From the IMG/VR virus record IMGVR_UViG_3300022555_000042: a stretch of DNA of 64,000 nucleotides, one strand, 5' to 3'. Below, piece after piece: positions 2,551 to 18,159 of this stretch. Within the stretch, counting starts at the first letter, position 1. The number at the start of each line of letters is the position of its first letter. The notes under the pieces were generated by a model. It saw only the letters and a program-made list of their open reading frames with translations. It searched no databases and had not been told where the DNA came from. Made by a program: the position numbers and the translations under genes. This stretch comes from an uncultured virus (IMG/VR IMGVR_UViG_3300022555_000042) (Duplodnaviria > Heunggongvirae > Uroviricota > Caudoviricetes).

Positions 2551-4194
2551 ATGGCTAAGCAAGTGATGTTCAATAATTCTCAGTCGCAGGACGCACGGGA
2601 GAGGATCCGCAACGGCATCAGAATCCTGGCTGAGGCTGTCAAGATTACCTTAGGGCCGTCTGGGCGGGTGGTCATGTATGAGCGTGACCATGGCGACCCC
2701 GCCATCACCAAGGATGGCGTGACGGTAGCCAAACAGATTGAGCTTGAAGATCCTGTTGAGAATATGGCCGCAGCCATGGTTCGGCAAGCCGCCACCAAGA
2801 CTGCTATCACCGCTGGGGATGGCACCACTACTGCTACCATCTATGCCCAGGCTATCTATGAGGCCGGCATCAAAGGCATTAGCTCTGGGGCTAATCCCCA
2901 GGAAGTGCGGCGTGGGATTGAGTACGCCACCCAGGAAGTAATCAAGAAAATCAAGGAGATGGCCCGGCCTGTGGTTGATCTCAATCAGGTTAAGCAGGTG
3001 GCTATTTGTAGTTCCAACCAGGATGTCGCCATTGGCACTATGATCGCCGAAGCCATGGAGAAGGTGGGGAGGGATGGTATCATCACGATCGAGGAGGGGC
3101 AATCCCTCAACACCGTGATTGAGCTGGTTGACGGTCTGCAGTTTGCTCGTGGGTATCTCAGCCCGCAGTTTGTCACTGACACTGAGACCATGCTGGCACG
3201 GTATGAAGACCCACAGCGTCCCTATCTGCTAGTGACTGACCAGAAGATTGGCGATCTTCGCCTGACCCTGCGCATTATGGAGATGGTAGTCAAGGAACTG
3301 CGCAACGAACCGCTGGTAATAATTGCGGATGACTTCTCGGACGATGCTCTTTCGGCCTTGATCCTGAACCGGATTAAGGGGCAACTCAACATTGTGGCAG
3401 TGAAGGCTCCAGGGTTTGGTGACCGTAAGCGGCAGAGCTGCGAAGATATCGCTATCGCTACGGGGGCTACGCTCATCAGCAAAGATGGGGTTGATTTCAA
3501 CGCCATGAAGGTATCGCATCTTGGCCGGTGCAAGAAGATCAAGATTGATCGTGATACTACGACTATCATTGATGGCGCTGGGGACCCCGCTAAAGTTCAA
3601 GCTAGGATTGACCAGTTGAAGTCGCAGATGGAGGCAACTCCGGGCGACTTCGATCGGGAGCGGGTCCAGGAGAGGTTGGCCAGGCTGACTGGCTCGGTCG
3701 CACAGATTTTTGTCGGCGGCGCGACGGAAGTGGAAGTCCGAGAGAGGCGGGATCGGATTGAGGATGCTTTGCACGCATGCAAGGCGGCGATTGAGGAAGG
3801 GATTCTGCCTGGTGGCGGGGTGGCGGCACTTCATGCCATTAAGTCGATTGATTTTGTGTCGCCCAATGAGGATTTCCGGATTGGTGTGGATATCATCCGG
3901 AAAGCGTTAGAGGCTCCTCTGCGGCAGATCGCTATTAACACTGGGCAGGATGATGGGGTGGTGGTATCGAAGGTGGTTGAGGCTACCGACATTGCTTTTG
4001 GATTTGATGCTTCCAAAAAGGCCTATGGGAATATGGTCGCCTTTGGGATCATCGTCCCGGCTAAGGTTGAGCGGGTGGCCTTGCAGAATGCCGCGTCGGT
4101 GTCGGGGCTTCTTCTGACCACAGACTGCACTATTTCTAGGATGAGAGGGGAGAAGGCTGAGCAGGCGATGCCGCAGTTTCCCTCATTAGCTTAG
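2551..4194 (+). CDS. groEL: chaperonin GroEL
   Basis: TLGPSGR, ITKDGVTVAK, AGDGTTTAT, KAPGFGD, RIEDAL, EEGILPGGG; GGAGGA RBS before ATG 2551. Confidence 0.97.
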   Translation: MAKQVMFNNSQSQDARERIRNGIRILAEAVKITLGPSGRVVMYERDHGDPAITKDGVTVAKQIELEDPVENMAAAMVRQAATKTAITAGDGTTTATIYAQAIYEAGIKGISSGANPQEVRRGIEYATQEVIKKIKEMARPVVDLNQVKQVAICSSNQDVAIGTMIAEAMEKVGRDGIITIEEGQSLNTVIELVDGLQFARGYLSPQFVTDTETMLARYEDPQRPYLLVTDQKIGDLRLTLRIMEMVVKELRNEPLVIIADDFSDDALSALILNRIKGQLNIVAVKAPGFGDRKRQSCEDIAIATGATLISKDGVDFNAMKVSHLGRCKKIKIDRDTTTIIDGAGDPAKVQARIDQLKSQMEATPGDFDRERVQERLARLTGSVAQIFVGGATEVEVRERRDRIEDALHACKAAIEEGILPGGGVAALHAIKSIDFVSPNEDFRIGVDIIRKALEAPLRQIAINTGQDDGVVVSKVVEATDIAFGFDASKKAYGNMVAFGIIVPAKVERVALQNAASVSGLLLTTDCTISRMRGEKAEQAMPQFPSLA

Positions 4195-4664
4195 AGGTTT
4201 GCACCTTCGTCGGCACCCTGCTTCTGCTTCAACTCTTCGCAATATTTTGCGATTTTGGTTACGATGTGGTCGCGGTCAGAGATGGACAGATGCTGGAGTC
4301 TCTCCGGCATCTCATCGTCGTCGAGGATCCAATAATCCTTATCCTCTTTTTTACTGGGGTCAATAAATTGGCCGGGGCCTAATCTCCGGGCCGCCTCCCA
4401 AATGGTATCCCCGTCGGTAATGATCATTTCATCGGGAGACTCAACGTAACCAAATTTGGGATGGTTGATGCCAGTGGGGACTTTATCCACGACGTATTGG
4501 CTGGAACTATCAAACGTTATGCGTACCAAGAAATAGGGGGTGGCATCTACTCGCCCAGCGGCTCGCGAGATGAACCGCCCACCAGCCCCGTCTTGGATGA
4601 TGACTATATCTTTGACGTCTGCTCTGCCGACGTTCCGCTTGGTGGATTTTTCGAAGTTAATCAT
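4191..4664 (-). CDS. hypothetical protein
   Basis: Start moved to ATG 4664, which has a GGAGG RBS and an upstream GTTGC-N17-GACAC motif. Confidence 0.65.
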   Translation of the reverse strand: MINFEKSTKRNVGRADVKDIVIIQDGAGGRFISRAAGRVDATPYFLVRITFDSSSQYVVDKVPTGINHPKFGYVESPDEMIITDGDTIWEAARRLGPGQFIDPSKKEDKDYWILDDDEMPERLQHLSISDRDHIVTKIAKYCEELKQKQGADEGANL

Positions 4665-4683
4665 GCGATCCTCCAGCTCTGTG

Positions 4684-4710
4684 GTGTCGCGCGGCGGCGG
4701 CGCGAGCAAC
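4684..4710 (-). promoter_or_regulatory. GTTGC-N17-GACAC motif
   Basis: Same spacing and GCGC-NN-CAC core as the other copies. Confidence 0.5.
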
Positions 4711-4718
4711 TCCCATAG

Positions 4719-4922
4719 ATGAATAGGCAAAACTACTATATGGATAAGTTTGCCGAACGAATAGACTCGATTCTGGAGTCTGGTCATTGGGCTGTATATA
4801 CAGGAAAGGGCCAGGGGTCGGCCCATATCATTGTGGATCCCAAGAGCTGGCCTAAACTGCAACGGATGACTAAAAAGGGCCTTGCACCCAAAAAGAGCAA
4901 TAGAATAGCCGGGAAGATCTAA
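4719..4922 (+). CDS. small hypothetical protein
   Basis: Stop overlaps the next start (TAATG). Confidence 0.5.
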   Translation: MNRQNYYMDKFAERIDSILESGHWAVYTGKGQGSAHIIVDPKSWPKLQRMTKKGLAPKKSNRIAGKI

Positions 4923-6571
4923 TGCAACCAGCATTTCCAATCAATCCATTTGGCGGCCAAGAGTACGTGGATGCTTGGCGGATTAAGTGGGTCTACGACG
5001 CCGAGCAAGACAACTGGACTATGGTTGGGGTCGTTCTAGATGTTCCTATCGCGCGTCCGCCCGACTCCACAGATGGTCCGACTAATGGCCTCCTATCCGC
5101 CGCCAGCAAGACTCTCCTGGACAAACTGCCAGATAAGGCCGGCGGATTCGGGATCTTGCTGAAGCCAGGTTACTATATTACCCCAGATAAGGGTGCCGAC
5201 AACATCCTCACTGGCGACATCCAGCTTATCAGCGAAACCCTGCAGTTTACCTGCCTTAATGACACTGGGAGCAGCATCTTCGGACCTATCCCAACCATTA
5301 AGATTGCATTGAGCAATGACTTCTTACAAGCGTATTCACTCAATATCAAAGGCCCCAAAGGGAAGACTGGTGAGGTGGGCAATAAGGGCAGAAGTGGGCG
5401 GCCTGGCACAGGGGATGGTCCGGTTGGCGATCCCGGCCCAGATGGGCAAGATGCAGCTACACATCACACCCTTAGTGGGATAAAGTACGTCGAGCTGGAC
5501 TCGGTCTATGATACAGCGGTAGTGGGTTTGCGGCTCGACCCAGCCACCTCAACTCTAGAAGTAACCAAAGCTAAAATGGATGTGCCGGGAGACAATCGGG
5601 CAGCGTCCAGAGTCGCCGCTACTCCGGTGGTTCGTGATGTTGAATTCACAGGCTCAGACTTATCCAGCTGGCAGTTGGTAGCCCCCGGCAGCGATAGTGC
5701 CTCCACCGATTTGAACCTCGTTAAACTTCCCAAGGGTTGGTCGGGGCAATCTGGTACCCCAGTGCCAGTAACGCCCGTGAAGCTGAGTACGGTGGTGCAG
5801 TCCATCGTTGACTATTATCAAACCCAGGCTAATACCATTATTACTCAATGGGAAGCGGCCCTGCGAGACTGGGTTTCGGCTAAGGATAAAGAAGCTCGGC
5901 AGGCGTTGTTCTCTCTCGCCACAGAGGTCGCTGAATGCCAGTTCCAGTTGCCCCTAGAGATGTGCGTGGGCATCAAGAAAGTACCTTGCACTAACCCAGA
6001 TCCACCGGTTAGCCCAGCTGGTGGTCCGACCGCGACCGGATCGGTGGTAGTTATTGTACTGGCCGATGAAGCGCCTGGGTATGACGGACAATATGCGATA
6101 TATTCTGCCGATCGCGAGCAGGCTTCGACTTTTTACAACAGGTTCCCATGCTTTCAGGATAATCTGATCCAATCTAAATGTTTAGTGGGCATTCTAATTC
6201 CATGCGGGGCAACGGTGAAGGCTCTGGGGCCGTCTAACAATGTGGATTTACCACTAGGATGGACGGCATCAACTACCGGCTCTACGCCTACCACATTGGA
6301 TTTACTCAATATTTGGACATCTATCATAAGCACTCAGGCTAGTGGATCCAAACCATATATTGGTGACATCACTAATGTGATTATACTGGTGGATGACACC
6401 CCAGCCAGGGCGGTGCCGAGCGAATTGTTTGCCGCTTCCCTCGAGCCAGGCTTGGGCAATTTCATCAGTCTACTGCGATCGACTACCAATGCCAACATCG
6501 TTGAGGTACCTTATACTTCGGAGCGTTGGGCCGCCGAGGTATCGGCGGTGCTATCCAATTTAGGAATATAG
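4922..6571 (+). CDS. putative virion structural protein with short collagen segment
   Basis: FPINPFGGQEY N-terminus, Gly-X-Y run (GPKGKTGEVGNKG), paralogous to 6573 and 30219. Confidence 0.65.
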   Translation: MQPAFPINPFGGQEYVDAWRIKWVYDAEQDNWTMVGVVLDVPIARPPDSTDGPTNGLLSAASKTLLDKLPDKAGGFGILLKPGYYITPDKGADNILTGDIQLISETLQFTCLNDTGSSIFGPIPTIKIALSNDFLQAYSLNIKGPKGKTGEVGNKGRSGRPGTGDGPVGDPGPDGQDAATHHTLSGIKYVELDSVYDTAVVGLRLDPATSTLEVTKAKMDVPGDNRAASRVAATPVVRDVEFTGSDLSSWQLVAPGSDSASTDLNLVKLPKGWSGQSGTPVPVTPVKLSTVVQSIVDYYQTQANTIITQWEAALRDWVSAKDKEARQALFSLATEVAECQFQLPLEMCVGIKKVPCTNPDPPVSPAGGPTATGSVVVIVLADEAPGYDGQYAIYSADREQASTFYNRFPCFQDNLIQSKCLVGILIPCGATVKALGPSNNVDLPLGWTASTTGSTPTTLDLLNIWTSIISTQASGSKPYIGDITNVIILVDDTPARAVPSELFAASLEPGLGNFISLLRSTTNANIVEVPYTSERWAAEVSAVLSNLGI

Positions 6572-6572
6572 C

Positions 6573-8648
6573 ATGAAATTCCCGGACAACCCAACCAACG
6601 GACAAGTTTATGAGGCCTCGCCAGGTGTCTACTACGAATATAGCACACCGACCAAGTCCTGGTATAGGATTGTGGCCCCTTCTATTCCTCTGGCTACGCA
6701 CAACGCCGCCGGGCTGATGTCGGCAGACGATTACAAGAAAATCCTGGGCTTAATCGTTCCTCCACCGCAGATTGCTCTTAGCTTCGAAGGTTGCACCACA
6801 ACTTATAGCAATGGATATATCAATCTTGTTGGTGACGATACTGGCATCATTACTGTTGAGGTTAAGAGCAGCAACCTCCACGAGAATACTGCCCAGATCA
6901 ATTTGGGCCTTGATACCCAGAAGCTAGCAGACAAGCTGATTGAACTAGGCCAGCTGCGTATGACTGCCCCCGTGGGGGATCGCGGGGCGCAGGGCGAGAC
7001 CGGTGACGCTGGGGCTGACCATCTCCCAGTTGGTCCACAAGGTCCGGATGGGAAAGACGGAGCTAACGCGGCCTGGCCTGGGTCATTGACTGAGGAATCC
7101 TTTAATGTGGTCAGCCAAGACCGCGGCATCGTGGATATCGGAGTGGAGAAAGTTAGCCCGACCGAGAATTATATCATAGTGACCAGGGCCAACATTGGCA
7201 ATCCGGATGCGTGCCCTGACACCATTTTGCCGCAGGATGTTGTTAGCCCCTGGGTATTGGGATTTTCTACTCCAACTGCCGCAACCCAATTGGTCAATCA
7301 GTCAGGCCAGACCTGTGGTTGGGCTTGCAATTCAGATCTCTATTATTTTGATATGGATGCGGTAGTGCAGTCCATCCGGACCCAATTCCTGGCTTATCTG
7401 GCCAAGACCAAGGCGGCCAAGGAGCAGTTAGCCCAGGATTGGTTGTCGGCAATGATGACCCTGTTCAATGAGCAGAAATCTGCGCTGTGCTGTGCTCTGG
7501 AGGCATGCCGCTCTCGGACGCGCAATCAGGACGCTCGCAGGTACCTGGAGCAGCAGGGGATTCAGGCGGCTCAGTCCAATTATTCTTTACTGGTTGGGAC
7601 CGAGGGCGACAAAGAATTCCCGCCGCTGGGTCCAAGCGGCGAATGTAAGTGGGATATCGCGTCGGCCAATTACAATCCAGTTCACTTGTCTGATCCTAAT
7701 TGCGCTGTGGATTGGTCGCAGGTTTGTCCGGTTAACTACGCGACTCCGCCTGTGGGTCAGCCGACTTCCGGTTCCGTGCGGGAGTCGAAGCTGGGGGCCA
7801 GTCGAGCCATATCCTCGTGGGATTACTCGACAACGCCGCCCACCGCCCCCGATGGGACGGATCCGCTTCCTCCTGGCCTTTATATTGAGCGTGACACGGG
7901 CCTGGTGGCATGGTTTACGTTCAATGATGCCGCCAATAGCTATTTTCTTGATTCCCAGAACCATAACAATATCCTGAAAGCTGGGGAGTATAGCTATACT
8001 ACTATTAATCGTGAGGCTTTGGGTGTCTGGCCTGGGCTGATGTTGAATGGGCCTAAGATTCCATATGTGACCCCATATGAATGGCCCACGGTGGCCCCCA
8101 CTTATCTGCCCATGGGCAGTGACGCCCGAAGTATCTCGGTCTTTATGCGGCAGGAGAATGTGGTTGAGTCCCTGGCACTCTCAGGGGCCGCGATTTGGTG
8201 GGGCGGGTCGCGGAGAACGATGCTACGTATCGTTGGGCCTTCTTCTCTTGAATCGGATACTGATACTACATATTACGGGCATGTCGAGACTTTCATCGGG
8301 ACTGAGGTTGGGCATGAGGCTGCAATTAGTCGGCAGCCTATCGATGATAATCTTTGGCACCATGTCGCCATGACTTATGATCCTGCTAGTCAGTTCTTGA
8401 CTCTCTATGTTGATAGTCTGATGGTTGGCAGAGTCCAGGGGATCTTCACTGGTGGCTCTGATCCGGATTTGGATCTTTTCCAGATTATGGGCGATAAGAC
8501 TTCGCTTGCAGATTTGCGGGTGTATAAGCGGACGCTGAGCAGCGTAGAAGTGTCCGGCCTATCCAAGAATCGCCTTTGGACTAAGCCTTCGGCTGCTCTA
8601 AGCCTAGTGCAGAATGGTCAAAGCCGGAACGGTGTTTGTGCTGAATAA
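6573..8648 (+). CDS. putative virion protein with collagen segment and C-terminal LamG/concanavalin-like domain
   Basis: FPDNPTNGQVY, Gly-X-Y run, GLVAWFTFND..DNLWHHVAMTYD..LTLYVD..LADLRVYKRTLS. Confidence 0.75.
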   Translation: MKFPDNPTNGQVYEASPGVYYEYSTPTKSWYRIVAPSIPLATHNAAGLMSADDYKKILGLIVPPPQIALSFEGCTTTYSNGYINLVGDDTGIITVEVKSSNLHENTAQINLGLDTQKLADKLIELGQLRMTAPVGDRGAQGETGDAGADHLPVGPQGPDGKDGANAAWPGSLTEESFNVVSQDRGIVDIGVEKVSPTENYIIVTRANIGNPDACPDTILPQDVVSPWVLGFSTPTAATQLVNQSGQTCGWACNSDLYYFDMDAVVQSIRTQFLAYLAKTKAAKEQLAQDWLSAMMTLFNEQKSALCCALEACRSRTRNQDARRYLEQQGIQAAQSNYSLLVGTEGDKEFPPLGPSGECKWDIASANYNPVHLSDPNCAVDWSQVCPVNYATPPVGQPTSGSVRESKLGASRAISSWDYSTTPPTAPDGTDPLPPGLYIERDTGLVAWFTFNDAANSYFLDSQNHNNILKAGEYSYTTINREALGVWPGLMLNGPKIPYVTPYEWPTVAPTYLPMGSDARSISVFMRQENVVESLALSGAAIWWGGSRRTMLRIVGPSSLESDTDTTYYGHVETFIGTEVGHEAAISRQPIDDNLWHHVAMTYDPASQFLTLYVDSLMVGRVQGIFTGGSDPDLDLFQIMGDKTSLADLRVYKRTLSSVEVSGLSKNRLWTKPSAALSLVQNGQSRNGVCAE

Positions 8649-8692
8649 CGCTGGCGGCAGGTCGATGTCGGTCAAGCTAGTGTAGATACGGT

Positions 8693-8977
8693 ATGGAGAA
8701 TTTATTCTATCTGACTCCTGCGGATTTGTGGCATTACGATTATATGCTGCGGCGTGGTTATCATAGGATTGTAGTCCCAGTAGGCTCTCAGAAGTTTGTG
8801 GTGTTTCAGCTAGTTGATAAGCCAGTGTTTATTGCTTGGCCTTCCGCTAGTGGCCAAATTGATTGGATCCCGCAAGGCAATTTGGTTTTTGAGGCTTCTC
8901 CATGGTTTCAGAGTTTTGTGAAACCACATTTGGCCGGGCGTAATGCAAAATGTGTGCTGTTTCCTAAGATGCAGTGA
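8693..8977 (+). CDS. hypothetical protein
   Basis: ORF in a co-directional run. Confidence 0.55.
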   Translation: MENLFYLTPADLWHYDYMLRRGYHRIVVPVGSQKFVVFQLVDKPVFIAWPSASGQIDWIPQGNLVFEASPWFQSFVKPHLAGRNAKCVLFPKMQ

Positions 8978-8984
8978 GGTTCAT

Positions 8985-9659
8985 ATGCCACTTCATGAAG
9001 GTTCGGAATACTACATCGTTAAGGGCTGGTTTGAACACTCAAACGGCTTGCACAATAACCAGTTTTACGGGGCGGTGGCCACGCCGGAAAACTTACTCAA
9101 GCCACGTCGGGTAGTGCTGGCCGGGGCAGATGCTCAAAAGGCCAGCGAAATGGCCGCAAGGCAGCCGGCCAAAGTGTATCCATCTGAGATCCTGGAGGGC
9201 GACACTGGTGGGCTAACTCCAGCTCAGGCGCAGGATACTCAGCGCCTGATCTTGGACCAGGATAAGGTGCAGCGCCGGAAGTGTACTAAATGCGGTGGCT
9301 GTGCGGATCGGGCGAAGGGCCAGAAGTGCGGCTTGCCAATGAACGGGGGAGAGTGTGATGGGGTGATGGGCGACGTTGCTAGTGAGTCGGTGTGTGGTAC
9401 TGGGTCTATCGCGATGAACGCCTATAAATCCGGGATGCCTGACCGGGGCGGCTTTGGCCGGGAGAAGTACACTACTGGTAGGGGTTTTGGGAAGCAGGAG
9501 CCTCAGAAGGGGAATAATTCAAAATTTGGTAAGCGGATCGGGTTGAGGAGCATCAAGCGGGGAACGGGTGCCAAGTTTGGGCTAAAGGGCATTGCCAATA
9601 AGATGAAGAATTTGCCCACAGTCAGCGCATCGGGCGGCTCGCTCGGTGGGAGGTCATAA
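8985..9659 (+). CDS. hypothetical protein with Cys cluster and basic tail
   Basis: GAGG RBS; CTKCGGC..C..C motif. Confidence 0.65.
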   Translation: MPLHEGSEYYIVKGWFEHSNGLHNNQFYGAVATPENLLKPRRVVLAGADAQKASEMAARQPAKVYPSEILEGDTGGLTPAQAQDTQRLILDQDKVQRRKCTKCGGCADRAKGQKCGLPMNGGECDGVMGDVASESVCGTGSIAMNAYKSGMPDRGGFGREKYTTGRGFGKQEPQKGNNSKFGKRIGLRSIKRGTGAKFGLKGIANKMKNLPTVSASGGSLGGRS

Positions 9660-10118
9660 GTGGTCGCAGAGGAAAAAGGGTATCCAAAGATCCTAGAAAA
9701 TTATGATCCGGAAGCGGATGACTTTGTTCGCCATCCCGTTTATCAGTTGGAGGTAAGCATGTACCTCCGGCGTCTTGATCCGACCCCTGAAATGGCTGGG
9801 TTCGGATTGGTTTCGATTGACCCCATTGATTATTATGTGACCAGTGGCGATGCAGTTCAGAAGACGACTTATTTGAGCCGGATCCTGTGGGCCTACGCGG
9901 GCAAAGCTCGCAAGGTCTTGAGTGAGCTGGAACATCCTAGCCAGGAATCTGTGGAGTTTGAGCAGGAGTGCTGGAAACAAGCCGGGAATGCACAGCGGCT
10001 GCTGAATTTGCTGATTAAGGTGCGCGGCCACGATGTATTTTTAGAGACAGAATGGAACCAGCATCAGTTGCTGTGCATCCCCAAAAATCCTCGCTCTAAG
10101 GGCGAGGTCATCGAATAA
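9660..10118 (+). CDS. hypothetical protein
   Basis: GGAGG RBS, abuts the previous gene. Confidence 0.65.
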   Translation: MVAEEKGYPKILENYDPEADDFVRHPVYQLEVSMYLRRLDPTPEMAGFGLVSIDPIDYYVTSGDAVQKTTYLSRILWAYAGKARKVLSELEHPSQESVEFEQECWKQAGNAQRLLNLLIKVRGHDVFLETEWNQHQLLCIPKNPRSKGEVIE

Positions 10119-10129
10119 ATGAGGAAGAC

Positions 10130-10186
10130 ATGAAGTTATTGATCCTGGGTTATACGCAGGTTTTGCCAGCACACAGTGTATCCTAA
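10130..10186 (+). pseudogene. orphaned 5' end of the P-loop kinase gene
   Basis: GAGGA RBS + MKLLILGYTQ, matching KILIVGYTQ of ORF 11001. Confidence 0.7.
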
Positions 10187-10201
10187 AATCAAACATAGAT
10201 T

Positions 10202-11017
10202 ATGCTAAAATTGAGTGATCGTGAAGTGTGCGATTTATATAAAGCCGGGCTATCACAGCAGAAGATAGCCGGATTGGCCGGATGCTGTCAAAAGTGGGTG
10301 TCTAAAATTATGAAAAAATCTGGCCAGCCCGTGAGGGTGCCAGAGAGAGACTGGTCGTTTGTCAATCTGGAAGACCAGTTTTTCTTTTATTGGCTTGGCT
10401 GGATGTTATCGGATGGTTGCATTGCGTACAAGAAGACTGGCGATCGTCTGCGAGGGGTTGTTTGTAAGATTGCCATACAAGCTGCCGACTCAGTTGTGTT
10501 GGAATTGTTTAAAAATAGGATACAGCCTCAGGCCAAAATCTACTTGAATAAACCAAGAGCTGGACACAAGCAGCAAAAAATATTGTCATTGAGCGTGCCC
10601 AGGAATGTGGCGATGGCGCTGGTCAAATGGGGGCTTGTTCCGGCCAAATCATTTATATTGAATCCCCCACTAGATAGAATGAGTCAACGCCAGTTTTATC
10701 AATTTTTATGTGGATATATAGAAGGCGATGGCGGCGTTGACTATAGGATAATGAAATCTAGAATGAATTTCTATGGGATGCTGCGTATCCGTATTTTCTC
10801 AGCCTCGACCAAGTTTATATCGCAGCTTAATGCTAAAATGATATCTCTTGGCTTTAAGAATAGAAAATGGCACACAAAACAGACCAAGAATGGTATGTTA
10901 CATACATATTCGGTAAATGGCAAAGATGCCTTTAAGCTGTACAATAAGATTAAGTCAAATTCACAATATATGTCCCTTGATCGCAAGTGGAGTAAGTGTA
11001 ATGCCCAGAAAAGTTAA
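10202..11017 (+). CDS. LAGLIDADG homing endonuclease with N-terminal HTH
   Basis: YWLGWMLSDGCI and FLCGYIEGDGGV; Lys-rich, AT-rich. Confidence 0.88.
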   Translation: MLKLSDREVCDLYKAGLSQQKIAGLAGCCQKWVSKIMKKSGQPVRVPERDWSFVNLEDQFFFYWLGWMLSDGCIAYKKTGDRLRGVVCKIAIQAADSVVLELFKNRIQPQAKIYLNKPRAGHKQQKILSLSVPRNVAMALVKWGLVPAKSFILNPPLDRMSQRQFYQFLCGYIEGDGGVDYRIMKSRMNFYGMLRIRIFSASTKFISQLNAKMISLGFKNRKWHTKQTKNGMLHTYSVNGKDAFKLYNKIKSNSQYMSLDRKWSKCNAQKS

Positions 11018-11501
11018 AATACTTATTGTTGGCTACACTCAGGCGGGCAAGTCCACCTCTGCGGAGATTCTGTCTGACTATCTGCGAGTGAGCTACGCGA
11101 ACAGCTCCGACGCCATCGTGGAGCAATACGCTCTAGCTGCGGGATTAACCCCCGCGCACATCCGGGCCAATAAGAGTGAATATCGTTCGGAGCTGTTTAA
11201 TTTTGGGCGAGCCAAGCAGGCTGTGGATGCTTTTTGGCCCCAGAGCGACTTGTTGAAGACTGCACACATTATCGCGGGCCTCCGCAATCCTGACGAAGTT
11301 CAGGCAGCGCGGGACCACAAGGCCTATGACGCGATTCTGTGGATCAGCCGTCCCGGCTGTGTGAAAGGCCCCACGGATAAGTTGGACCCGAGTTGTGCCG
11401 ATGTCCAGGTTGAGAATGACGGGGCTATTAGCGACTTGCGAGGTAAATTAATAGCAATAGTGCAAGGACTGCAGCAGCTCCCAGAACTGCGAGCCAGTTG
11501 A
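11001..11501 (+). CDS. dNMP kinase-like P-loop protein
   Basis: GYTQAGKST Walker A, YRSELFNFG, IAGLRNPDE. Confidence 0.7.
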   Translation: MPRKVKILIVGYTQAGKSTSAEILSDYLRVSYANSSDAIVEQYALAAGLTPAHIRANKSEYRSELFNFGRAKQAVDAFWPQSDLLKTAHIIAGLRNPDEVQAARDHKAYDAILWISRPGCVKGPTDKLDPSCADVQVENDGAISDLRGKLIAIVQGLQQLPELRAS

Positions 11502-11757
11502 TTTCCAGCCGCGTGGGGGGTTGGGGTAGAGGGGGAGGTTTAGGCAAGTGCGCGTGCAATTTCCGTAGTTGGGCTTCGGCCTGGCGGAGTCTTTGGTATT
11601 CGGGGTATTCAACTACGGTAACGAGTTTTGGGACTAAATTCTTTTTGGCTAACTCAATGATGACTAGTTCAAACCGGTCGCACTCCATGACTCCGTCATG
11701 GTATTTGAGATCAAAGTCGAGTGCTTGCCATTTAAAATAAGCCATTAAGAAACTCAA
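11428..11757 (-). CDS. hypothetical protein with C-terminal membrane segment
   Basis: Pro-rich linker then hydrophobic tail; start uncertain. Confidence 0.5.
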   Translation of the reverse strand: MSFLMAYFKWQALDFDLKYHDGVMECDRFELVIIELAKKNLVPKLVTVVEYPEYQRLRQAEAQLRKLHAHLPKPPPLPQPPTRLEINWLAVLGAAAVLALLLLIYLASR

Positions 11758-11769
11758 ATACGGTGGTAA

Positions 11770-12252
11770 ATGTTTGGATTTTCACACAAGAAGCAAGCTC
11801 CGGTAGCTATTTTCCGCAGGCATCATGTCATATTTCAATATAAACTAATTCATTCCGACGCCAAAGTTCCGACCCAATCGCGTGATACCGACGCCGCCTA
11901 TGATGTGTATACCATCGATGCGGCCCTCATTGAGCCCGGCACCATGGTAAATTTACACACTGGTATCAGGCTGGCTTGTCCCGATGGCTGGTATTATACC
12001 ACAGAAGGTCGCTCCGGGCTTAATTCCAAATTTATAACTCCATTGCGCGGGGTTATCGATGCGTCGTTCAATGGAGAACTGCGGATCATCCTTTGCAATT
12101 TTTCTAAGGTACCATATCAAGTATCTAAAGGCGATCGGGTCGCCCAAATCATCGCACATGAGATGAATAAAGTTACGTTCAAACAGGTTGAGGAATTTAG
12201 CCCGGAGTATGATATGCGCGGGATTAAAGGCTGGGGATCAACCGGAAAGTGA
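11770..12252 (+). CDS. dut: trimeric dUTPase
   Basis: All five motifs: AAYDV, GRSGL, GVIDASFNGE, RVAQII, RGxxGWGSTG. Confidence 0.93.
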   Translation: MFGFSHKKQAPVAIFRRHHVIFQYKLIHSDAKVPTQSRDTDAAYDVYTIDAALIEPGTMVNLHTGIRLACPDGWYYTTEGRSGLNSKFITPLRGVIDASFNGELRIILCNFSKVPYQVSKGDRVAQIIAHEMNKVTFKQVEEFSPEYDMRGIKGWGSTGK

Positions 12253-12257
12253 GTATC

Positions 12258-12545
12258 ATGAGTAAGAACAGATATGTTGTTGTCTATGCCAAAGTGACGG
12301 ACAACAAGGAGAGCGGGGCACTAATGAGCGGTGTTTATTTCGGAGGCGTAGCTTCAACTGTCGAGGAAGCTGACAAAATCGCTGAACGCTGTGTGGCCGA
12401 GACCCAGGGCGGCCTGGTTATTCCCAAGGTTGCCAAGATGCATACCGATGACTTGCTCGAAGTAATTAAGGTTATTGAGGGTCGTTTCGACGAGCTGGCC
12501 AAGCAGATGTATGAGAATGAGCGGATCGCCAGCCGGCGGCGCTAA
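12258..12545 (+). CDS. hypothetical protein
   Basis: ORF following dut. Confidence 0.6.
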   Translation: MSKNRYVVVYAKVTDNKESGALMSGVYFGGVASTVEEADKIAERCVAETQGGLVIPKVAKMHTDDLLEVIKVIEGRFDELAKQMYENERIASRRR

Positions 12546-13462
12546 TCTGGCTGGGCTAGCCTGTTTCTAGAATTATATCCCCCAAACTCCTTTCGGAAGA
12601 AACAGGCTCTCCGAATGTTGCTTTTGGTTTTCGATTCGACCAGCTTCTGCTGGGCTGCGCTAAGTGGAATGAAAGACTTGGCGATGGCAACATTCTCTTC
12701 TAGTTGGGCAACTGAGCCCATCCCTACGATTACTGTAGAGACCGGCTGTGACAGTGAGTAAGTCAGAGCCTCCCATACCGTCCGGAGCCCATCTCGCTTT
12801 TTATCGAAGATGAACCCTTGGGCGAAGACCTTCATGCCGATTACGCCTAAGTTATGCTTCTGAGCCGTGCCCTTGGCGACCACGGCGATAAATGATGGAT
12901 TCATATTAGCATCGGCGGCGTTGATGGGGCACAGAACCGTATCGAAGCTGTGCCGTTTGGCCATCTCTGCCAGTACCTTAGGGTCTTCGTGGCCGGTGAA
13001 CCCAAGATGTTTTACTACTTTTTGCTCCTGCATCTCTATTAAGGCTTGTAGCGCTCCGTCCTTGCCAGTAACCTCGGAGATCTCATCCATCGCCCTGAGA
13101 TGGTGAATCTGCCATAGGTCCAAGTGGTCGGTCTTGAGCTTCTTGAGTGATTTTTCGAGAAGTTTTAGAGAGCCGTCGCGGGTGCGCTCGTCTGTTTTAC
13201 AAGCCAGAAAGATCTTACTCCGAATTCCTTGGAGAGCCTCACCATAATAGGATTCAGAGGGGCCATATGCGGGGGCGGTGTCAAAGTATCTAAGTCCAAG
13301 CTCATAGGCTCGGCGGATAATTTTGACGCAGTTGTCCATGTTGCCGTGGGTTTCGAGGGAGCCTTGCCCACCAAGGCTGAGGATGGGGACTTTAAAGCCA
13401 GTTGCGCCCAACCGGCGTGTGGCTAGTTTGCCTTTGGCTTCATGGAGGGTTTCTAGATTCAT
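12542..13462 (-). CDS. aldo/keto reductase
   Basis: RRLGATG, YFDTAPAYGPSE, LACK, LKTDHLDLWQIHH, GMKVF. Confidence 0.93.
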   Translation of the reverse strand: MNLETLHEAKGKLATRRLGATGFKVPILSLGGQGSLETHGNMDNCVKIIRRAYELGLRYFDTAPAYGPSESYYGEALQGIRSKIFLACKTDERTRDGSLKLLEKSLKKLKTDHLDLWQIHHLRAMDEISEVTGKDGALQALIEMQEQKVVKHLGFTGHEDPKVLAEMAKRHSFDTVLCPINAADANMNPSFIAVVAKGTAQKHNLGVIGMKVFAQGFIFDKKRDGLRTVWEALTYSLSQPVSTVIVGMGSVAQLEENVAIAKSFIPLSAAQQKLVESKTKSNIRRACFFRKEFGGYNSRNRLAQPD

Positions 13463-15795
13463 TAGCTAAGCTCAAGCTGGCCTAGGCTATACTGCGAGAA
13501 CTGGAAGAGCTTGGAGCGAACCACAACTCTCCGAACTCTCGACCCAGGCCAGAGCCGCAAGCCAAACTTCCCATATTTAACCACATCAGTGATCTCAAAG
13601 AATGGGTTGCCGCTGGCAGTTGGCACCAGCAGATTATTCCACCACATCCAGACTTGGTTTTCGATGACCATAACCCGGAGTGTGTTGTAATACTCAACGC
13701 CACTTACGATGCCACCATTGAGAATATAGAAGCCTTCGGTGCTCGTGACAGCCCCAGCACTTGAAGTTTCTGGGCTGCCGTCCTGCCAATAGGTTGGGCC
13801 AGCCTCATAAGAGCTGAAATCCCGAATATAGTTGGCCCCCGATTCACTGCCATAGTCCACTGCCATATCCAGGGTGCCTACCAGCGGTGTGACTTCGATA
13901 TCATGCCCATCAGTGTTGTGCAAGAATTGCAGTCTGACTGCGGGGGTGGTGTATTCCTCATGGAGGATTTCGACCTGCGATCCGGCGTTGGGCGTGGTTT
14001 CAGTGGTAACCAGGTAAATCGAATCGCCAGTGAAATTCATAACCTTCGCGATGTAGGACATGGTCTGCCCATAGGTGTAAGATCCATTATGGTTGGTGAC
14101 CTTGATCATGCCGCGTGGTGGGTAGTCATTCCAAGTTGGGCCGACCAGTTTGACGTAGCCGTACCCAGCATATACGCCACTAGCGAAGGTCCCTTTGGCA
14201 GTTATTAGGGCATACCTGCTATCCACTGTGGATACCGGTGCTCGGAGCAGCACATCAACTGGGGGATAGATTAACCCAGAAGTTGGCACGATGGGGCGTG
14301 CCATGTAGATGTCAATGAGGGCATTGCGGAGGCTGGCCCGGTGCCAGATGAAAACAGGTCTCTGGGCATTGATGGCGGAGATATCGATGTCATCGTCGAC
14401 GATCTCCAGATACTTACGCTCGACCGCTCCCGTAGTGTGGACTACGGTTGAGGTGTAGTTGGCTTGGCCGGTGAGTGGGACCAGATTGTCGGAGCCATCC
14501 ACGCCTAGCAAGGGGTCATAAAGGTTAGTCACGCCCCATTGGGATGGGTCGATGATCGGAACGTCATTGTGCTCCGGCTCGCCAGCGGTGTCTCCGCTTT
14601 CTTGCGTGCCGTTGTTCAGTTCATCTCCAAATTCGATCGCCCCCATGGTTGTCCAGAGTCCGTTGACGTCCATGGCCGGCTTTTCCATGCAGTAGTAGCA
14701 TGGGGAGGAGCCGCACTGAACCATCCAGACATCCACGAATTGCCCGACGTTTAGGATGGATCCTAGTACACCATCGGTCACCATAACGTTATTGGTTAGG
14801 TCCCACTGCTGCAGATTGGTGATGGAAATCTCAGCCCCGACGGAAGCCTGACTGGTTAAGCTCCAGAATTTCGCCTTATATTTGTTGGTGGCGAGGACAT
14901 CCGACGAGTAACCAATAATTACAGCCATCTGTTTGGTGATGGAGTTATTCTTGTAGAGCAGAGCGCCGAACAACCCAGGAGCTGAATTGGGGCTGAACTT
15001 GAAGTCAATCCGGTTCCCGGAAGTGTCTGTGCCCAAATACCAGAGGCACTCAGCAGTACCAGTTGCACCGGGGGTAAAGGCCCATCCAACTGTGGCTGCT
15101 CCAGCAGTGTTACGCTGCAGGACGATATCAAGTTCGCCCTCATTGGTGCCAGTTCCGTCGTCATATCTCTTGAAAATTAGGGTGGGGTATTGGCCTTTGG
15201 CCGCCAGGGTGTCGGTGGTTGAGTTGGGGTTGATTACGGTCGATTCTGGGAATAGATAAATCTTGAGTTCACCATAACCATTAACGCCAGGGAGGTGCCC
15301 ACCGCAGGAAGGCGGGCGGATAGCGTTGACGTCAGTTTCGTCTTGGATCCAATAGATCTGGAAACATTCTTCGGCGGTGCACACGAATGGGCTGGGGACG
15401 TCTACGACCCATCTGATGATATTTCCAACGCGCTCCAAGCTGATGAAATCGCTGCCGGCTGAGAAGATGATATCGCCGGTCATCCAGCCGCCGTCATCTG
15501 GGAATCCAGCTCCCTGGAACCCTAGAACACCGATCCTAGTGCCGGTAATGGCGTCCAGCTTGCATTTATCGTTGGCGGACATAAGCCCTGGGGTATTGCA
15601 AGATGCGGCTGGGACTGGGTCCTGTGCTATGTGGGTACTTCCGTGCTTAGCAGTGGCCCCAAGCACCCCATCACGGATATAGAAAGTGCGCTGGGTCTGG
15701 TCATATTGGTACGCGAGGGCGGTATTATCTGGGCCGGTGAGCTGTACCAGTTGTCCATCGATGTAACTGGTGTGGGGCTGCAACTTATTGCTCAT
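13462..15795 (-). CDS. putative virion structural protein
   Basis: Long T/G/S-rich ORF with PGLMSANDKCKLD motif similar to 6573; GGAG RBS. Confidence 0.65.
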   Translation of the reverse strand: MSNKLQPHTSYIDGQLVQLTGPDNTALAYQYDQTQRTFYIRDGVLGATAKHGSTHIAQDPVPAASCNTPGLMSANDKCKLDAITGTRIGVLGFQGAGFPDDGGWMTGDIIFSAGSDFISLERVGNIIRWVVDVPSPFVCTAEECFQIYWIQDETDVNAIRPPSCGGHLPGVNGYGELKIYLFPESTVINPNSTTDTLAAKGQYPTLIFKRYDDGTGTNEGELDIVLQRNTAGAATVGWAFTPGATGTAECLWYLGTDTSGNRIDFKFSPNSAPGLFGALLYKNNSITKQMAVIIGYSSDVLATNKYKAKFWSLTSQASVGAEISITNLQQWDLTNNVMVTDGVLGSILNVGQFVDVWMVQCGSSPCYYCMEKPAMDVNGLWTTMGAIEFGDELNNGTQESGDTAGEPEHNDVPIIDPSQWGVTNLYDPLLGVDGSDNLVPLTGQANYTSTVVHTTGAVERKYLEIVDDDIDISAINAQRPVFIWHRASLRNALIDIYMARPIVPTSGLIYPPVDVLLRAPVSTVDSRYALITAKGTFASGVYAGYGYVKLVGPTWNDYPPRGMIKVTNHNGSYTYGQTMSYIAKVMNFTGDSIYLVTTETTPNAGSQVEILHEEYTTPAVRLQFLHNTDGHDIEVTPLVGTLDMAVDYGSESGANYIRDFSSYEAGPTYWQDGSPETSSAGAVTSTEGFYILNGGIVSGVEYYNTLRVMVIENQVWMWWNNLLVPTASGNPFFEITDVVKYGKFGLRLWPGSRVRRVVVRSKLFQFSQYSLGQLELS

Positions 15796-15808
15796 ATGGG
15801 TTCTCCGA

Positions 15809-16978
15809 TTATATGGTATATGGCTCACCATTAGATTGGTTTCTCGCTTCCACGAGATGCGTCTTCGCGTCTCTCTGCGAGCGTAAATTCCGGTCAGCCC
15901 GACCGTATACTAATATATTTGATGCAGCATTTACATCGCGGTCGTGAACTACACAGCATTCGTTGCACCGCCACGACCGATCGGATAACTGTAAGCCGCG
16001 GTTTATTTCACCGCATTTACTACATGTCTTACTAGATGGGAAAAATCTGTCTATCTTAAACACGTCGCAGCCATACCACAACCCTTTATAGGACAGCTGC
16101 TTAACAAATTCACTCCATCCAGCATCGCCAACTTGTCTTCCAAAGCGCTGCTTCATTCCCTCAATGTTCAAGTCTTCGACATAGATGGCTTGGTTTTCAC
16201 CAACCAGTCTCCGGCTTAATTTATGAAGAAAATCGCTTCGGATATTGGTGATTCTCTCGTGCTGTAGCGCCAGCCTATGTTTTGCTTTGCTCCTCCTCTT
16301 TGATCCTAATTTTTTATGTGATAGCAGCCTATTTAGACGCCGCAATCTGCGAAGCTTCTTTGCCAATGGCCTTGGGTGCTCTACTTTGATTCCATCAGAT
16401 GTAGTGATAAAATGTTTTAACCCAAAATCTAATCCGATCATTGGCTTTGTTTTGTCGGCAATCGGATCTGCGATTTCCATCTCATAATTAATTGAGGCAA
16501 AGTATTTGCCCGTGGTGGTTTTTGATATGGTAATTGACCATAATTTATATTGCACTGGTAATTTAACTTCACATTTCAATATCCCAATAATTGGGATGGC
16601 CACCCCATCGTTACCGGCTCGGCAGAATGGTGCGCTTATCCTGAATGACTGTCTTCCGCGTTTCTTTTTAAATTTGGGGTACGACGATTTCTTCTTATAG
16701 AAATTATTATATGCTGCATCCAAATTAGCGATTGAATTTGCGGCGCATTGCCTGCCCACATCGCATAACCAACCCGTCTCTGGCTTCTTCTTTAATTTGG
16801 TAAGGCCGTGGCACATCATCACAAATGAGTCTGATTTTTTGTTGATTTTATATTGTTCTGTCTTATGGTGTAGGAAGTGATTGTAGATCCATCGTGCGGC
16901 ACCAAAATGTTGTGCTAATTGCCCGCGCTGCTCGGTGGTTGGGTAGATTCTGGCTTTATGTGCTTTATTAATTTTCAC
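15809..16978 (-). mobile_element. tnpB: stand-alone TnpB RNA-guided endonuclease (IS200/IS605 family), no tnpA nearby
   Basis: N-terminal HTH (KARIYPT..FGAARWIYN), RuvC GLDFG / VEDL / DRDVNAA, CxxC-CxxC zinc finger. Confidence 0.92.
15810..15905 (-). ncRNA. putative omegaRNA scaffold overlapping the tnpB 3' end
   Basis: Nested hairpin 15843-15881 at the position where TnpB guide-RNA scaffolds normally lie; boundaries approximate. Confidence 0.45.
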
Positions 16979-17070
16979 ACATTATATTTGACTGGCAAAT
17001 AAAAATTGCGCATTCTTATTTTAAGGCTTTTACTAACCATGTAATACGTATGGCTTGGTATATTTGCGGC

Positions 17071-17997
17071 CTACGAGTAGATGAGGGCATAATGCTTCTT
17101 TCCTGGGGTCCCTCGGATTTCCACGATTTTTGTGGGCGTGGCCAACTCTAGGGCCTGGGGCAGTTTCTTCTCGTTCATGATTGCCAGCATGCGTGTGCTC
17201 TTCTCACGTAGCTCCTTAAGTGCCCCAATCCGCCAGTATTTATAGGCACTGGCGAAGACCGTTAAGTCATATGGCTCGGTAGCCTGGCATTGGATTAGTC
17301 CGATGCGGCTAGCCATCTCACTGGGTGGACCCGATCCATCTAGGGTTGCATATTTGCAGCCGCACATGGTTGCAGTGACTGCTTTCTCGTATAGGTTTGG
17401 AAGAGCATCTACTAGAACAGTATTCTTATCGATGGCGAAGTGCCTAGTTAGGATTCCATAGAGGGCGACGGGGCTGAGCCATTTTGGGCCGAATCCCATG
17501 CGAAAGAACATGGAGTGGATAGTGGATAGGTTTAGATCCCATTTGGTTCTATGGATAACACGATGTATAGCCAAGAAGAGGGCGCGGTGTGATCCGAAGG
17601 CCGACTCCATGGAGTATTTCCACCCGAGCGGCTGCATTTCTCGGATGTCGCAATAGCGATCCAGGAAGGCACGGAAAGGTCGGTGTGGTAGGCCGTATTT
17701 GCTATACATGCAGATGGTTGGCGGGAATTTGACTCGTTTGTGGCACACCAGCTCTTGATCGATTTCCTTTTCGGCTACGGGAGGCTTCATGAAGCCGCAT
17801 GGCATAAGGGTTCTTAATAGATATTGGATCAATAACTCTTTTTGCATGAAACTGAGCGTGTCGATTAAGCGGCGTGGAATATGGGGGTACATGTATTTGT
17901 CGAAGAAGGAGTCAAAGGGGTCGTGCTGGACTTGGCAGCCGATTGGGATTGGCCATTTGCATGTGGCCATTTCTGGTGAGATGTCGATTCGGTACAT
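17071..17997 (-). CDS. hypothetical protein, weak resemblance to a degenerate SAM-dependent methyltransferase
   Basis: LSPVALYGIL..VLVDALPNLYEK..GCKYATLD loosely parallels F.P..AK.IY..VLDP..GWGGR..Y.G.D. Confidence 0.5.
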   Translation of the reverse strand: MYRIDISPEMATCKWPIPIGCQVQHDPFDSFFDKYMYPHIPRRLIDTLSFMQKELLIQYLLRTLMPCGFMKPPVAEKEIDQELVCHKRVKFPPTICMYSKYGLPHRPFRAFLDRYCDIREMQPLGWKYSMESAFGSHRALFLAIHRVIHRTKWDLNLSTIHSMFFRMGFGPKWLSPVALYGILTRHFAIDKNTVLVDALPNLYEKAVTATMCGCKYATLDGSGPPSEMASRIGLIQCQATEPYDLTVFASAYKYWRIGALKELREKSTRMLAIMNEKKLPQALELATPTKIVEIRGTPGKKHYALIYS

Positions 17998-18159
17998 GTA
18001 TCTCTTGCGTGGTGGGCGATATAGGTAGGATCTTCTAAATCCAGTAGTATACCATACCCGGATAGCGTCGTAGCGTACGTCGATTTTTTCGACTAGTTCG
18101 CATCGAAGCAGGTCGTTGGCCAGTCTTCTGACCCAGTATGGTCTAGTTCCGTGTTCCAG

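What the first reader, a model, noticed from the sequence alone, without database searches (positions are those of the whole stretch)
10120..11060. Homing endonuclease inserted in a kinase P-loop, supplying a recoded replacement 5' end
Seen: upstream of the endonuclease is an RBS plus ATG AAG TTA TTG ATC CTG GGT TAT ACG CAG G (MKLLILGYTQ), which then degenerates. Overlapping the endonuclease stop is a new start leading to AAA ATA CTT ATT GTT GGC TAC ACT CAG G|CG GGC AAG (KILIVGYTQAGK). The peptides match while most codons differ, and the junction falls inside Walker A. Inference: the element splits its target without splicing and repairs it with a cleavage-resistant N-terminus.
Basis: partly seen in the sequence, partly recalled or inferred. 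Interest (0 to 1): 0.7.

Follow-up and report, generated by a model that had tools for sequence, protein, structure and literature searches.

The report
Phage nuclease gene replaces kinase start
A selfish DNA-cutting enzyme gene sits inside the start of a phage kinase gene and keeps that gene working by carrying a re-spelled copy of its first codons, leaving the old start as a dead stub; this layout is known from fungal mitochondria but is rarely noted in phages.

Summary
A 10-codon stub with its own ribosome-binding site (10130-10160, MKLLILGYTQ, then 8 unrelated codons and a stop) lies 41 nt upstream of an intact two-motif LAGLIDADG homing endonuclease gene (10202-11017). The last 17 nt of that gene overlap the start of a complete dNMP-kinase-like gene (11001-11501, MPRKVKILIVGYTQAGKST). 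The stub and the new start agree at 7 of 9 residues but differ at 10 of 27 bases, and 8 of 9 codons differ. Both junctions fall after the same CAGG, inside the Walker A codons. Chance is excluded: the stub scores 39, against 22 for the next best of 88,940 nine-mers. Assembly error is excluded: an independent metagenome contig is identical, and contigs of four runs bridge both junctions. Rfam finds no intron, and the endonuclease is not in frame as an intein. The kinase needs no splicing. Random mutation would keep the peptide this well in only 0.015-0.04% of trials, so both copies diverged while they were working gene starts. I found no endonuclease-free allele. The target site, the cleavage resistance and which copy is native therefore remain inferences. 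The layout mirrors the mobile endonuclease ORFs of fungal mitochondria, but at the 5' end. This scan has noted similar layouts on other phage DNA.

The parts
9660..10118 (+). Upstream gene (152 aa, no family). Its stop lies 11 nt before the stub's ATG, so it is the left homology arm of the locus.
10121..10127 (+). Ribosome-binding site GAGGAAG of the old kinase start.
10130..10186 (+). Stub ORF. The first 10 codons (10130-10159, plus G 10160) are the old kinase start MKLLILGYTQ; 8 unrelated codons and TAA follow. It is in the same frame as the endonuclease, with two stops between them.
10161..11043 (+). Inferred insert of 883 nt: spacer, endonuclease gene and replacement 5' end. CAGG is shared at both junctions (10157-10160 and 11040-11043), so the boundaries can slide by up to 4 nt. 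GC is 36-47% in 200-nt windows lying within the insert, against 51-58% in the flanks.
10202..11017 (+). Free-standing LAGLIDADG homing endonuclease gene, 271 aa. It has an N-terminal helix-turn-helix, motif 1 WLGWMLSDG (10391-10417) and motif 2 LCGYIEGDG (10706-10732). No Shine-Dalgarno sequence is recognisable before its ATG.
10988..10991 (+). GGAG ribosome-binding site of the new kinase start, embedded in the endonuclease coding sequence.
11001..11043 (+). Replacement 5' end of the kinase: MPRKV plus KILIVGYTQ plus the first base of Ala15. Bases 11001-11017 overlap the endonuclease ORF. GC3 is 5 of 14.
11001..11501 (+). Complete dNMP-kinase-like P-loop kinase gene, 166 aa. Walker A GYTQAGKS is at 11031-11054.

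Best explanation
A free-standing, monomeric two-motif LAGLIDADG homing endonuclease gene occupies the 5' end of a phage dNMP-kinase-like gene, between the first and second base of codon 11 of the old reading frame, inside the Walker A codons. The inserted block (about 10161-11043) has three parts: a 41-nt spacer, the endonuclease gene, and a second, differently spelled copy of the kinase's first codons. That copy overlaps the endonuclease's last 17 nt and has a new RBS and ATG. The kinase is therefore made whole from the new start, with 4 extra residues (MPRKV), and needs neither RNA nor protein splicing. The old start remains as an 18-codon dead stub. This much is shown. The rest is inferred. 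The enzyme probably cuts endonuclease-free alleles at or near the Walker A codons, and the break is repaired from an occupied genome. The upstream gene plus stub serve as the left homology arm and the kinase body as the right arm, so the block is copied in like an intron. The occupied allele escapes re-cutting because the site is split: its right half now follows a left half that differs at 5 of the 16 bases next to the junction. The replacement start most likely came from another, diverged kinase allele together with the endonuclease. The stub's retained RBS and ATG, ending 15 nt before the endonuclease ATG (which has no Shine-Dalgarno sequence), may now feed weak coupled translation of the endonuclease.
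For: Anatomy. Endonuclease identity: Pfam LAGLIDADG_3 scores 25.5 bits against a cut-off of 22.5. PHROG 4645 'endonuclease' matches at 8e-23 over residues 7-264. Both motifs and their acidic residues D71 and D176 are invariant in the alignment with a 33%-identical homologue. The AlphaFold model (pLDDT 70.9) hits I-Tsp061I, I-SceI, E-DreI, I-DmoI and the I-OnuI family, with 141 matches at E<=0.001. Kinase identity and intactness: PHROG 139 'dNMP kinase' matches at 1.6e-11. There are 332 relatives at E<=1e-3, and all 11 invariant columns are kept. The family profile hits phosphomevalonate kinase 3ch4 over its full length and T4 dNMP kinase 1dek. The stub is the canonical start: 15 of 19 aligned relatives begin as it does, and the Walker A first G is at residue 7, as in the stub, in 31 of the 79 relatives with a strict motif. 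Chance is excluded. Both copies evolved as working gene starts: of the 10 base differences, 8 are synonymous-type and 2 are conservative, and 10 random substitutions keep at least 7 of 9 residues in only 0.015-0.04% of 200,000 trials. No intron. Composition: the insert is low in GC. GC3 is 5/14 for the new start and 7/10 for the stub; it is 0.47 for the endonuclease and 0.62 for the kinase body, and the shift falls at about codon 15. The structure is stable in nature: L001 is identical, and four runs bridge both junctions. Precedent: fungal mitochondrial mobile endonuclease ORFs that bring a foreign gene end and strand the native one (passages read in PMC3630166; PMC7487136).
Against: No endonuclease-free allele and no relative closer than 48% identity was found. 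Insertion polarity, target site and immunity are therefore untested. The look-ups were: the kinase's 90% cluster holds only this protein and a longer ORF call of it. All DNA laid carried the endonuclease, and no joint skipped it; contigs drop rare variants, so this neither shows fixation nor helps. The composition evidence is weak: the codon log-odds are +1.6 and -1.8 bits over 9 codons, and the stub itself is only 40% GC. Similarity of the start is not a marker of close kinship. 3 of 149 relatives reach 7/9 identity to the stub, and P0036 reaches 8/9 to the new start despite about 37% identity overall. The 're-spelling' may therefore be plain divergence of a distant donor rather than selected escape. 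Free-standing endonucleases can cut at a distance from their own gene, so the junction need not be the cut site. None of the 7 other mobile-nuclease genes in the window shows such a flank duplication, so there is no sign that this is a general habit in this phage.
Confidence: 0.75

Rival explanations
1. Incidental or reversed insertion. The endonuclease's real target is elsewhere, or the new start is the native one and the stub came in with the endonuclease. On this view a single illegitimate recombination placed foreign DNA here, and the duplication has no role in homing or immunity.
For: No endonuclease-free allele is available to set polarity. The composition signal is weak. Free-standing endonucleases often cut away from their own gene (T4 review PMC2988022, passages read). 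The shared CAGG is only 4 nt, which is compatible with microhomology joining.
Against: The stub follows the upstream gene by 11 nt, has a strong RBS and has the family's canonical start position. The new start is physically interlocked with the endonuclease's last 17 nt and shares its low GC3. Both junctions fall at the same point of the kinase reading frame, as expected for insertion at one site. That point lies in the most conserved motif, the usual choice of homing endonucleases.
Confidence: 0.14
2. Local tandem duplication of the kinase's 5' end within this genome. The upstream copy later decayed, and the endonuclease landed independently between the copies.
For: Partial duplications beside free-standing endonuclease genes are reported in fungal mitochondria (PMC7487136, passages read).
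Against: An in-place duplicate starts out identical. An untranslated or unselected copy that gathers 10 changes in 27 bases would keep at least 7 of 9 residues in only 0.015-0.04% of trials. The observed changes are 8 synonymous-type and 2 conservative, which is the pattern of two genes each kept by selection.
Confidence: 0.05
3. A self-splicing group I intron or an intein. The stub would be exon 1, joined to the kinase body after RNA or protein splicing.
For: Phage endonuclease genes are often intron-borne. Short N-terminal exons are easily overlooked, as with the ICP1 terminase (PMC10448857, passage read).
Against: The Rfam E-value scan of 9900-11400 on both strands gave no intron family. 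Only 41 nt lie outside the ORF on the left and none on the right. The stub region's fold is no better than that of shuffles (z = 0.35). The endonuclease has its own start and stop, and there is no in-frame fusion to the kinase. The downstream kinase is already complete, so splicing would duplicate or delete Walker A residues.
Confidence: 0.03
4. Assembly chimera or chance resemblance.
For: The sequence comes from a metagenome, and the stub is only 10 codons long.
Against: An independent contig is 100% identical. Contigs of 4 runs from 2 studies bridge both junctions. The stub scores 39, against a window-wide maximum of 22.
Confidence: 0.01

Closest known systems
Mobile endonuclease ORFs (mORFs) of fungal mitochondria that create 'gene hybrids': Allomyces macrogynus atp6, and Glomus sp. 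atp6, atp9, cox2 and nad3 (PMC3630166, passages read; the Allomyces paper itself was seen only as cited there)
   Same: A free-standing endonuclease gene is inserted in a conserved protein gene together with a diverged duplicate of the displaced gene end. The duplicate keeps the gene whole, the native end is left behind as a remnant, and no splicing is needed. The duplicated ends diverge at the DNA level while the protein is conserved.
   Different: There the C-terminal (3') end is replaced and the endonuclease lies downstream of the new end. Here the N-terminal (5') end, with a new RBS and ATG, is replaced and the endonuclease lies upstream. The host here is a phage, not a mitochondrion. The target is a kinase Walker A motif. 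In the fungal cases a close relative proved which end is native; here none is available.
Phage genes split by free-standing endonuclease genes: mobE in nrdA of Aeromonas phage Aeh1, mobA between T4 genes 39 and 60, and a seg gene in gene 43 of phage 25 (review PMC2988022, passages read)
   Same: A free-standing homing endonuclease gene sits inside a functionally critical coding region of a phage nucleotide-metabolism or replication gene, without an intron or intein. Signals for the downstream gene are embedded in the endonuclease gene.
   Different: Those insertions leave two polypeptides that must reassemble. Here nothing is split at the protein level, because the lost piece is duplicated and the stub is dispensable. 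The word stem 'duplicat' occurs 0 times in that review.
Intronless homing of T4 Seg and Mob endonucleases, with co-conversion of flanking markers (PMC2988022; PMC2790892 and PMC2330249 seen as search listing and abstract only)
   Same: The proposed spread is the same: cleavage of the endonuclease-free allele, then repair from the occupied genome, which carries flanking donor sequence with it.
   Different: Seg and Mob genes sit between genes, and resistance comes from polymorphisms in the neighbouring gene. Here the gene sits inside the target ORF, and the resistant copy is a physically separate, duplicated segment. The enzyme family also differs: LAGLIDADG here, GIY-YIG or HNH there.
Synthetic 'home-and-rescue' or 'cleave-and-rescue' gene drives with a recoded rescue copy of the target gene (recalled, not from any call)
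   Same: The logic is the same: a nuclease inserted in a useful gene carries a re-spelled, cut-resistant replacement of the part it destroys.
   Different: Those are engineered, RNA-guided and work in eukaryotes. The resemblance here is functional only, and the resistance of the natural copy is untested.

Membership tests
LAGLIDADG homing endonucleases (monomeric, two-motif) | Two LAGLIDADG helices, each ending in a catalytic acidic residue | tested here: met
   WLGWMLSD71G and LCGYIEGD176G are both invariant in the alignment with the 33%-identical P0158.
LAGLIDADG homing endonucleases (monomeric, two-motif) | Profile match above the curated threshold | tested here: met
   Pfam LAGLIDADG_3 scores 25.5 bits against a cut-off of 22.5; it covers the second domain only. 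PHROG 4645 matches at 8e-23 over residues 7-264.
LAGLIDADG homing endonucleases (monomeric, two-motif) | Two tandem alpha-beta-beta-alpha-beta-beta-alpha domains | tested here: met
   The AlphaFold model has pLDDT 70.9 and pTM 0.67 from an alignment of only 3 sequences. The Foldseek top hits are all LAGLIDADG enzymes at probability 1.00, but TM-scores are only 0.35-0.44.
LAGLIDADG homing endonucleases (monomeric, two-motif) | Site-specific cleavage of a long target, leaving 4-nt 3' overhangs | not testable with these tools
   This needs a biochemical assay.
Free-standing homing endonuclease gene (intronless homing) | Not embedded in a self-splicing intron or an intein | tested here: met
   No Rfam intron hit. 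The gene has its own ATG and stop and is in a different frame from the kinase.
Free-standing homing endonuclease gene (intronless homing) | Presence/absence polymorphism among otherwise similar genomes | tested here: inconclusive
   No endonuclease-free allele turned up in the phage, viral, metagenome or protein collections, or in 4 laid runs. The only close DNA found is identical to the window.
Fungal-mitochondrial-type mORF 'gene hybrid' elements | An endonuclease ORF adjacent to a diverged duplicate of the interrupted gene's end, which keeps the gene intact | tested here: met
   Here it is the 5' end rather than the 3' end.
Fungal-mitochondrial-type mORF 'gene hybrid' elements | The displaced native end matches endonuclease-free relatives better than the inserted end does | tested here: inconclusive
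   No close relative exists in the collections searched. Only weak composition evidence is available.
Group I intron | A conserved catalytic core (P3-P9), with splicing needed to restore the ORF | tested here: not met
   No hit at E<=1 in 9900-11400. The downstream ORF is complete without splicing.
Intein | In-frame insertion with splicing blocks flanking the endonuclease | tested here: not met
   Stops separate the stub from the endonuclease. The endonuclease stop lies inside the kinase's 5' end in another frame. There is no Hint-domain hit.
Phage dNMP-kinase-like P-loop kinases | Walker A motif GxxxxGK[ST] near the N-terminus, plus a family profile match | tested here: met
   GYTQAGKS occupies residues 11-18. 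PHROG 139 matches at 1.6e-11. Pfam AAA_18 is below its cut-off, 16.9 against 29.4 bits. The family profile hits PDB 3ch4 and 1dek.
Phage dNMP-kinase-like P-loop kinases | Phosphorylation of dNMPs | not testable with these tools
   The substrate is unknown. The full-length structural-sequence match is to phosphomevalonate kinase.

The most novel reading that the evidence does not exclude
The block 10161-11043 is a self-contained 'cut-and-rescue' homing cassette: an endonuclease that travels with a re-spelled, cut-resistant copy of the target gene's first 14 codons and a new translation start. This would be a third natural way, beside introns and inteins, for a selfish nuclease gene to live inside the catalytic-motif codons of a useful gene without destroying it. 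It would be the 5'-end mirror image of the fungal mitochondrial mORFs and a natural counterpart of engineered home-and-rescue gene drives. The stranded old start may have been re-used as a leader ORF that throttles endonuclease translation.
Probability: 0.4. Interest if true: 0.65.

Novelty: new variant of a known kind. Interest (0 to 1): 0.45.

Why it matters
Homing endonuclease genes normally survive inside conserved coding sequence only by hiding in an intron or an intein. Otherwise they sit between genes, or they split a gene into two polypeptides. This locus shows a different arrangement in a phage: the element replaces the gene end it displaces with its own diverged copy. If the enzyme cuts the unbroken Walker A site and spares the re-spelled one, three things follow. 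The locus would be a compact natural model of nuclease-plus-recoded-rescue drive. It would explain how short foreign patches enter phage core genes. It would also predict that short orphan ORFs carrying a gene's canonical start or end beside nuclease genes are insertion scars that genome annotation should recognise. The enzyme would also be a new LAGLIDADG specificity with a target inferable from the sequence.

Tried and rejected
**Search for endonuclease-free or related alleles**
- blastn of 9000-12500 against phage records gave no match.
- tblastn of the kinase and of the endonuclease against phages found only relatives at 29% identity or less.
- Scans of viral contigs found nothing. The queries were the kinase, the upstream gene, the endonuclease, two kinase relatives and two exact DNA patterns.
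- The metagenome scan found only an identical contig.
- The genome-contig scan with the endonuclease homologue P0158 found nothing.
- The nearest virus record, G001, does not cover window 1-20000.
- The window's own assembly is not held.
- The word-index protein search found only the protein itself, and for the endonuclease only P0153 and P0158.

**Sequencing runs**
- No RNA holder is listed, so expression and splicing could not be examined.
- The laid contigs showed no joint that skips the endonuclease. Some parts had no cover.

**Checks within the window**
- Seven other mobile-nuclease genes in the window show no flank duplication.
- The inverted similarity 10175-10189 / 11025-11039 (15 nt, 80%) is no better than 23 other pairs in the same 1.1 kb, so I treat it as chance.
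- The RNA fold of 10105-10215 is no better than shuffles.
- The chaperonin search gave no useful lineage for the phage.

**Literature**
- Five searches and passages from five papers gave no phage case of an endonuclease gene carrying a duplicated 5' gene end. This is a limited search, not proof of absence. Supplements were not opened.

**Not run**
- I did not search public DNA for the joined, endonuclease-free junction, because that would require typing a joined sequence.

Full report
**The observation**

Reading 9700-11900 and listing ORFs confirms the layout. The upstream gene (9660-10118) ends 11 nt before an ATG at 10130, which is preceded by GAGGAAG. The frame reads MKLLILGYTQ (10130-10159). 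After G 10160 it continues into 8 unrelated codons and stops at 10184-10186.

A 271-aa ORF follows at 10202-11017. Seventeen bases before its stop, in another frame, an ATG at 11001 opens a 166-aa ORF that begins MPRKVKILIVGYTQAGKST. That ATG has GGAG 9 nt upstream.

The stub and the new start agree at 7 of 9 residues, and the two differences are conservative. They differ at 10 of 27 bases, and 8 of 9 codons differ. Both copies end in CAGG, after which they part. That point is the first base of the alanine codon within the Walker A motif GYTQAGKS.

In a six-frame scan of the window the stub scores 39 against the new start. The best of the other 88,940 nine-mers scores 22. The arrangement is not an assembly artefact. 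A contig from another metagenome is identical over 2001 nt. Contigs of four lake and freshwater runs from two studies bridge both junctions, with 0 differences apart from 1 other letter in one X3 piece.

**The parts**

The 271-aa protein is a LAGLIDADG homing endonuclease:
- Pfam LAGLIDADG_3 is above its threshold.
- PHROG 4645 'endonuclease' matches over nearly the full length, and weaker PHROG hits to transcription regulators cover the N-terminal helix-turn-helix, residues 9-38.
- Two motifs are present, with acidic residues D71 and D176 conserved in a 33%-identical homologue.
- A predicted structure of moderate confidence (pLDDT 70.9) has all its top PDB matches among LAGLIDADG enzymes: I-Tsp061I, I-SceI, I-DmoI and the I-OnuI family.

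The 166-aa protein belongs to a family of small P-loop kinases:
- PHROG 139 'dNMP kinase' matches at 1.6e-11.
- There are 332 relatives at E<=1e-3, the closest at 44-48% identity.
- The family profile matches phosphomevalonate kinase over its full length and T4 dNMP kinase in part.
- The protein keeps all 11 columns that are invariant in the alignment of 20 family members including it.

**Which start is the old one**

15 of 19 aligned relatives begin M[K/R/N] directly before the hydrophobic strand, exactly as the stub does. The window's kinase has 4 extra residues. Among the 79 of 149 relatives with a strict Walker A motif, the first glycine is at residue 7 in 31, as in the stub, and at residue 11 in 9, as in the present gene.

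The insert is low in GC: 36-47% in windows within it, against 51-58% in the flanks. GC3 is 5/14 for the new start and 7/10 for the stub. It is 0.47 for the endonuclease and 0.62 for the kinase body, with the shift at about codon 15. These numbers point to the stub as native and the new start as imported with the endonuclease, but they are weak.

**Intron, intein and local duplication are excluded**

An E-value Rfam scan of 9900-11400 gave no intron family. Only 41 nt lie outside ORFs. The endonuclease is not fused in frame to the kinase, and the kinase is complete as it stands.

A local duplication followed by decay is very unlikely. Ten random substitutions in 27 bases keep at least 7 of 9 residues in only 0.015-0.04% of 200,000 trials. 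The observed changes are 8 synonymous-type and 2 conservative. Both copies therefore diverged while each was the start of a working gene, that is, in different genomes.

**Most likely mechanism**

The enzyme probably cuts endonuclease-free alleles at or near the Walker A codons. Repair from an occupied genome then copies in the block 10161-11043. The upstream gene plus stub form one homology arm and the kinase body the other. The occupied allele is protected because the site is split: the kinase-side half now follows a left half that differs at 5 of the 16 nearest bases. The kinase is translated from the RBS and ATG embedded in the endonuclease gene.

The endonuclease ATG has no recognisable Shine-Dalgarno sequence. 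It lies 15 nt after the stub's stop, in the same frame, so the stub may now act as a leader ORF.

What is shown is the anatomy, the protein identities, the absence of an intron or intein, the intact kinase and the pattern of divergence. What is inferred is the cut site, the immunity, the polarity and the translational coupling.

**Evidence against, and what is missing**

I found no endonuclease-free allele and no relative closer than 48% identity. Every laid contig carries the endonuclease.

Similarity of the start is not a sign of kinship. 3 of 149 relatives reach 7/9 identity to the stub, and one distant relative reaches 8/9 to the new start. The re-spelling may therefore be plain divergence of a distant donor rather than selected escape. 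Free-standing endonucleases can also cut away from their own gene.

The window holds 7 other mobile-nuclease genes, and none of them shows a flank duplication. The three LAGLIDADG genes are only about 24% identical to each other.

**Comparison with what is known**

The closest parallel is the mobile endonuclease ORFs of fungal mitochondria. These insert with a foreign C-terminal gene end and strand the native end downstream. I read passages on them in PMC3630166. [quoted passage not shown] The present case is the 5'-end mirror image, in a phage.

Phage precedents are endonuclease insertions that split genes into two polypeptides: Aeh1 nrdA, T4 39/60 and gene 43 (PMC2988022). That review never uses the stem 'duplicat'. 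Five literature searches gave no phage description of this layout, but the search was limited.

Earlier notes of this scan report similar layouts on other phage and mitochondrial DNA. I did not test those notes.

**Verdict**

This is a new variant of a known kind. Interest is moderate.

Noticed in passing
window 15809-16978 (-), 29101-30198, 48327-49424, 50713-51303, 51483-52232, 52852-53730, 58495-59079 (-): The window is crowded with mobile-nuclease genes. There are two more LAGLIDADG genes (PHROG 4645, about 24% identical to the one studied), a GIY-YIG/NUMOD1 gene, two HTH plus PD-(D/E)XK genes, a TnsA-like endonuclease gene and a TnpB (OrfB_IS605) gene next to a tail-fibre-like gene. None shows a duplicated flank.
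   Followed up: partly
window 10382-10422: In all four laid runs, a different contig (up to 1514 nt) matches this 41-nt stretch with 4 mismatches and then runs on unlike the window. The stretch encodes the first LAGLIDADG motif. This suggests a second, related endonuclease gene in another context in the same lakes.
   Followed up: no
window 10202-11017 (protein cluster): A 3715-nt public contig carries this endonuclease as two broken ORFs. P0154 is 130 aa with a changed tail. P0155 is 76 aa and diverges after ...STKF. This hints that the gene is decaying in some populations. The DNA could not be fetched.
   Followed up: no
window 34275-39393 and 39462-41470: Five tandem paralogous ORFs of 332-347 aa (44-48% identical) are followed by three tandem paralogues of 216-221 aa (44-50% identical). 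None has a Pfam family. They lie just after a collagen-repeat protein at 32686-33936.
   Followed up: partly
window 1545-4194, 23300-24835, 12542-13462, 62398-62712: The phage carries an unusual set of auxiliary genes. The longest contig holding the kinase is 215,405 nt. The genes include a sigma-70-like factor, a Cpn60/GroEL chaperonin, an adenosine deaminase beside a second P-loop kinase (AAA_33), an aldo/keto reductase and a ribosome-modulation-factor-like ORF.
   Followed up: no
window 10175-10189 and 11025-11039: A 15-nt inverted similarity (80%) lies between the spacer just inside the left junction and the replacement start. On the minus strand, 10172-10198 even reads LCLILGYTV. It is no stronger than 23 other inverted pairs in the same 1.1 kb, so it is probably chance.
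   Followed up: partly
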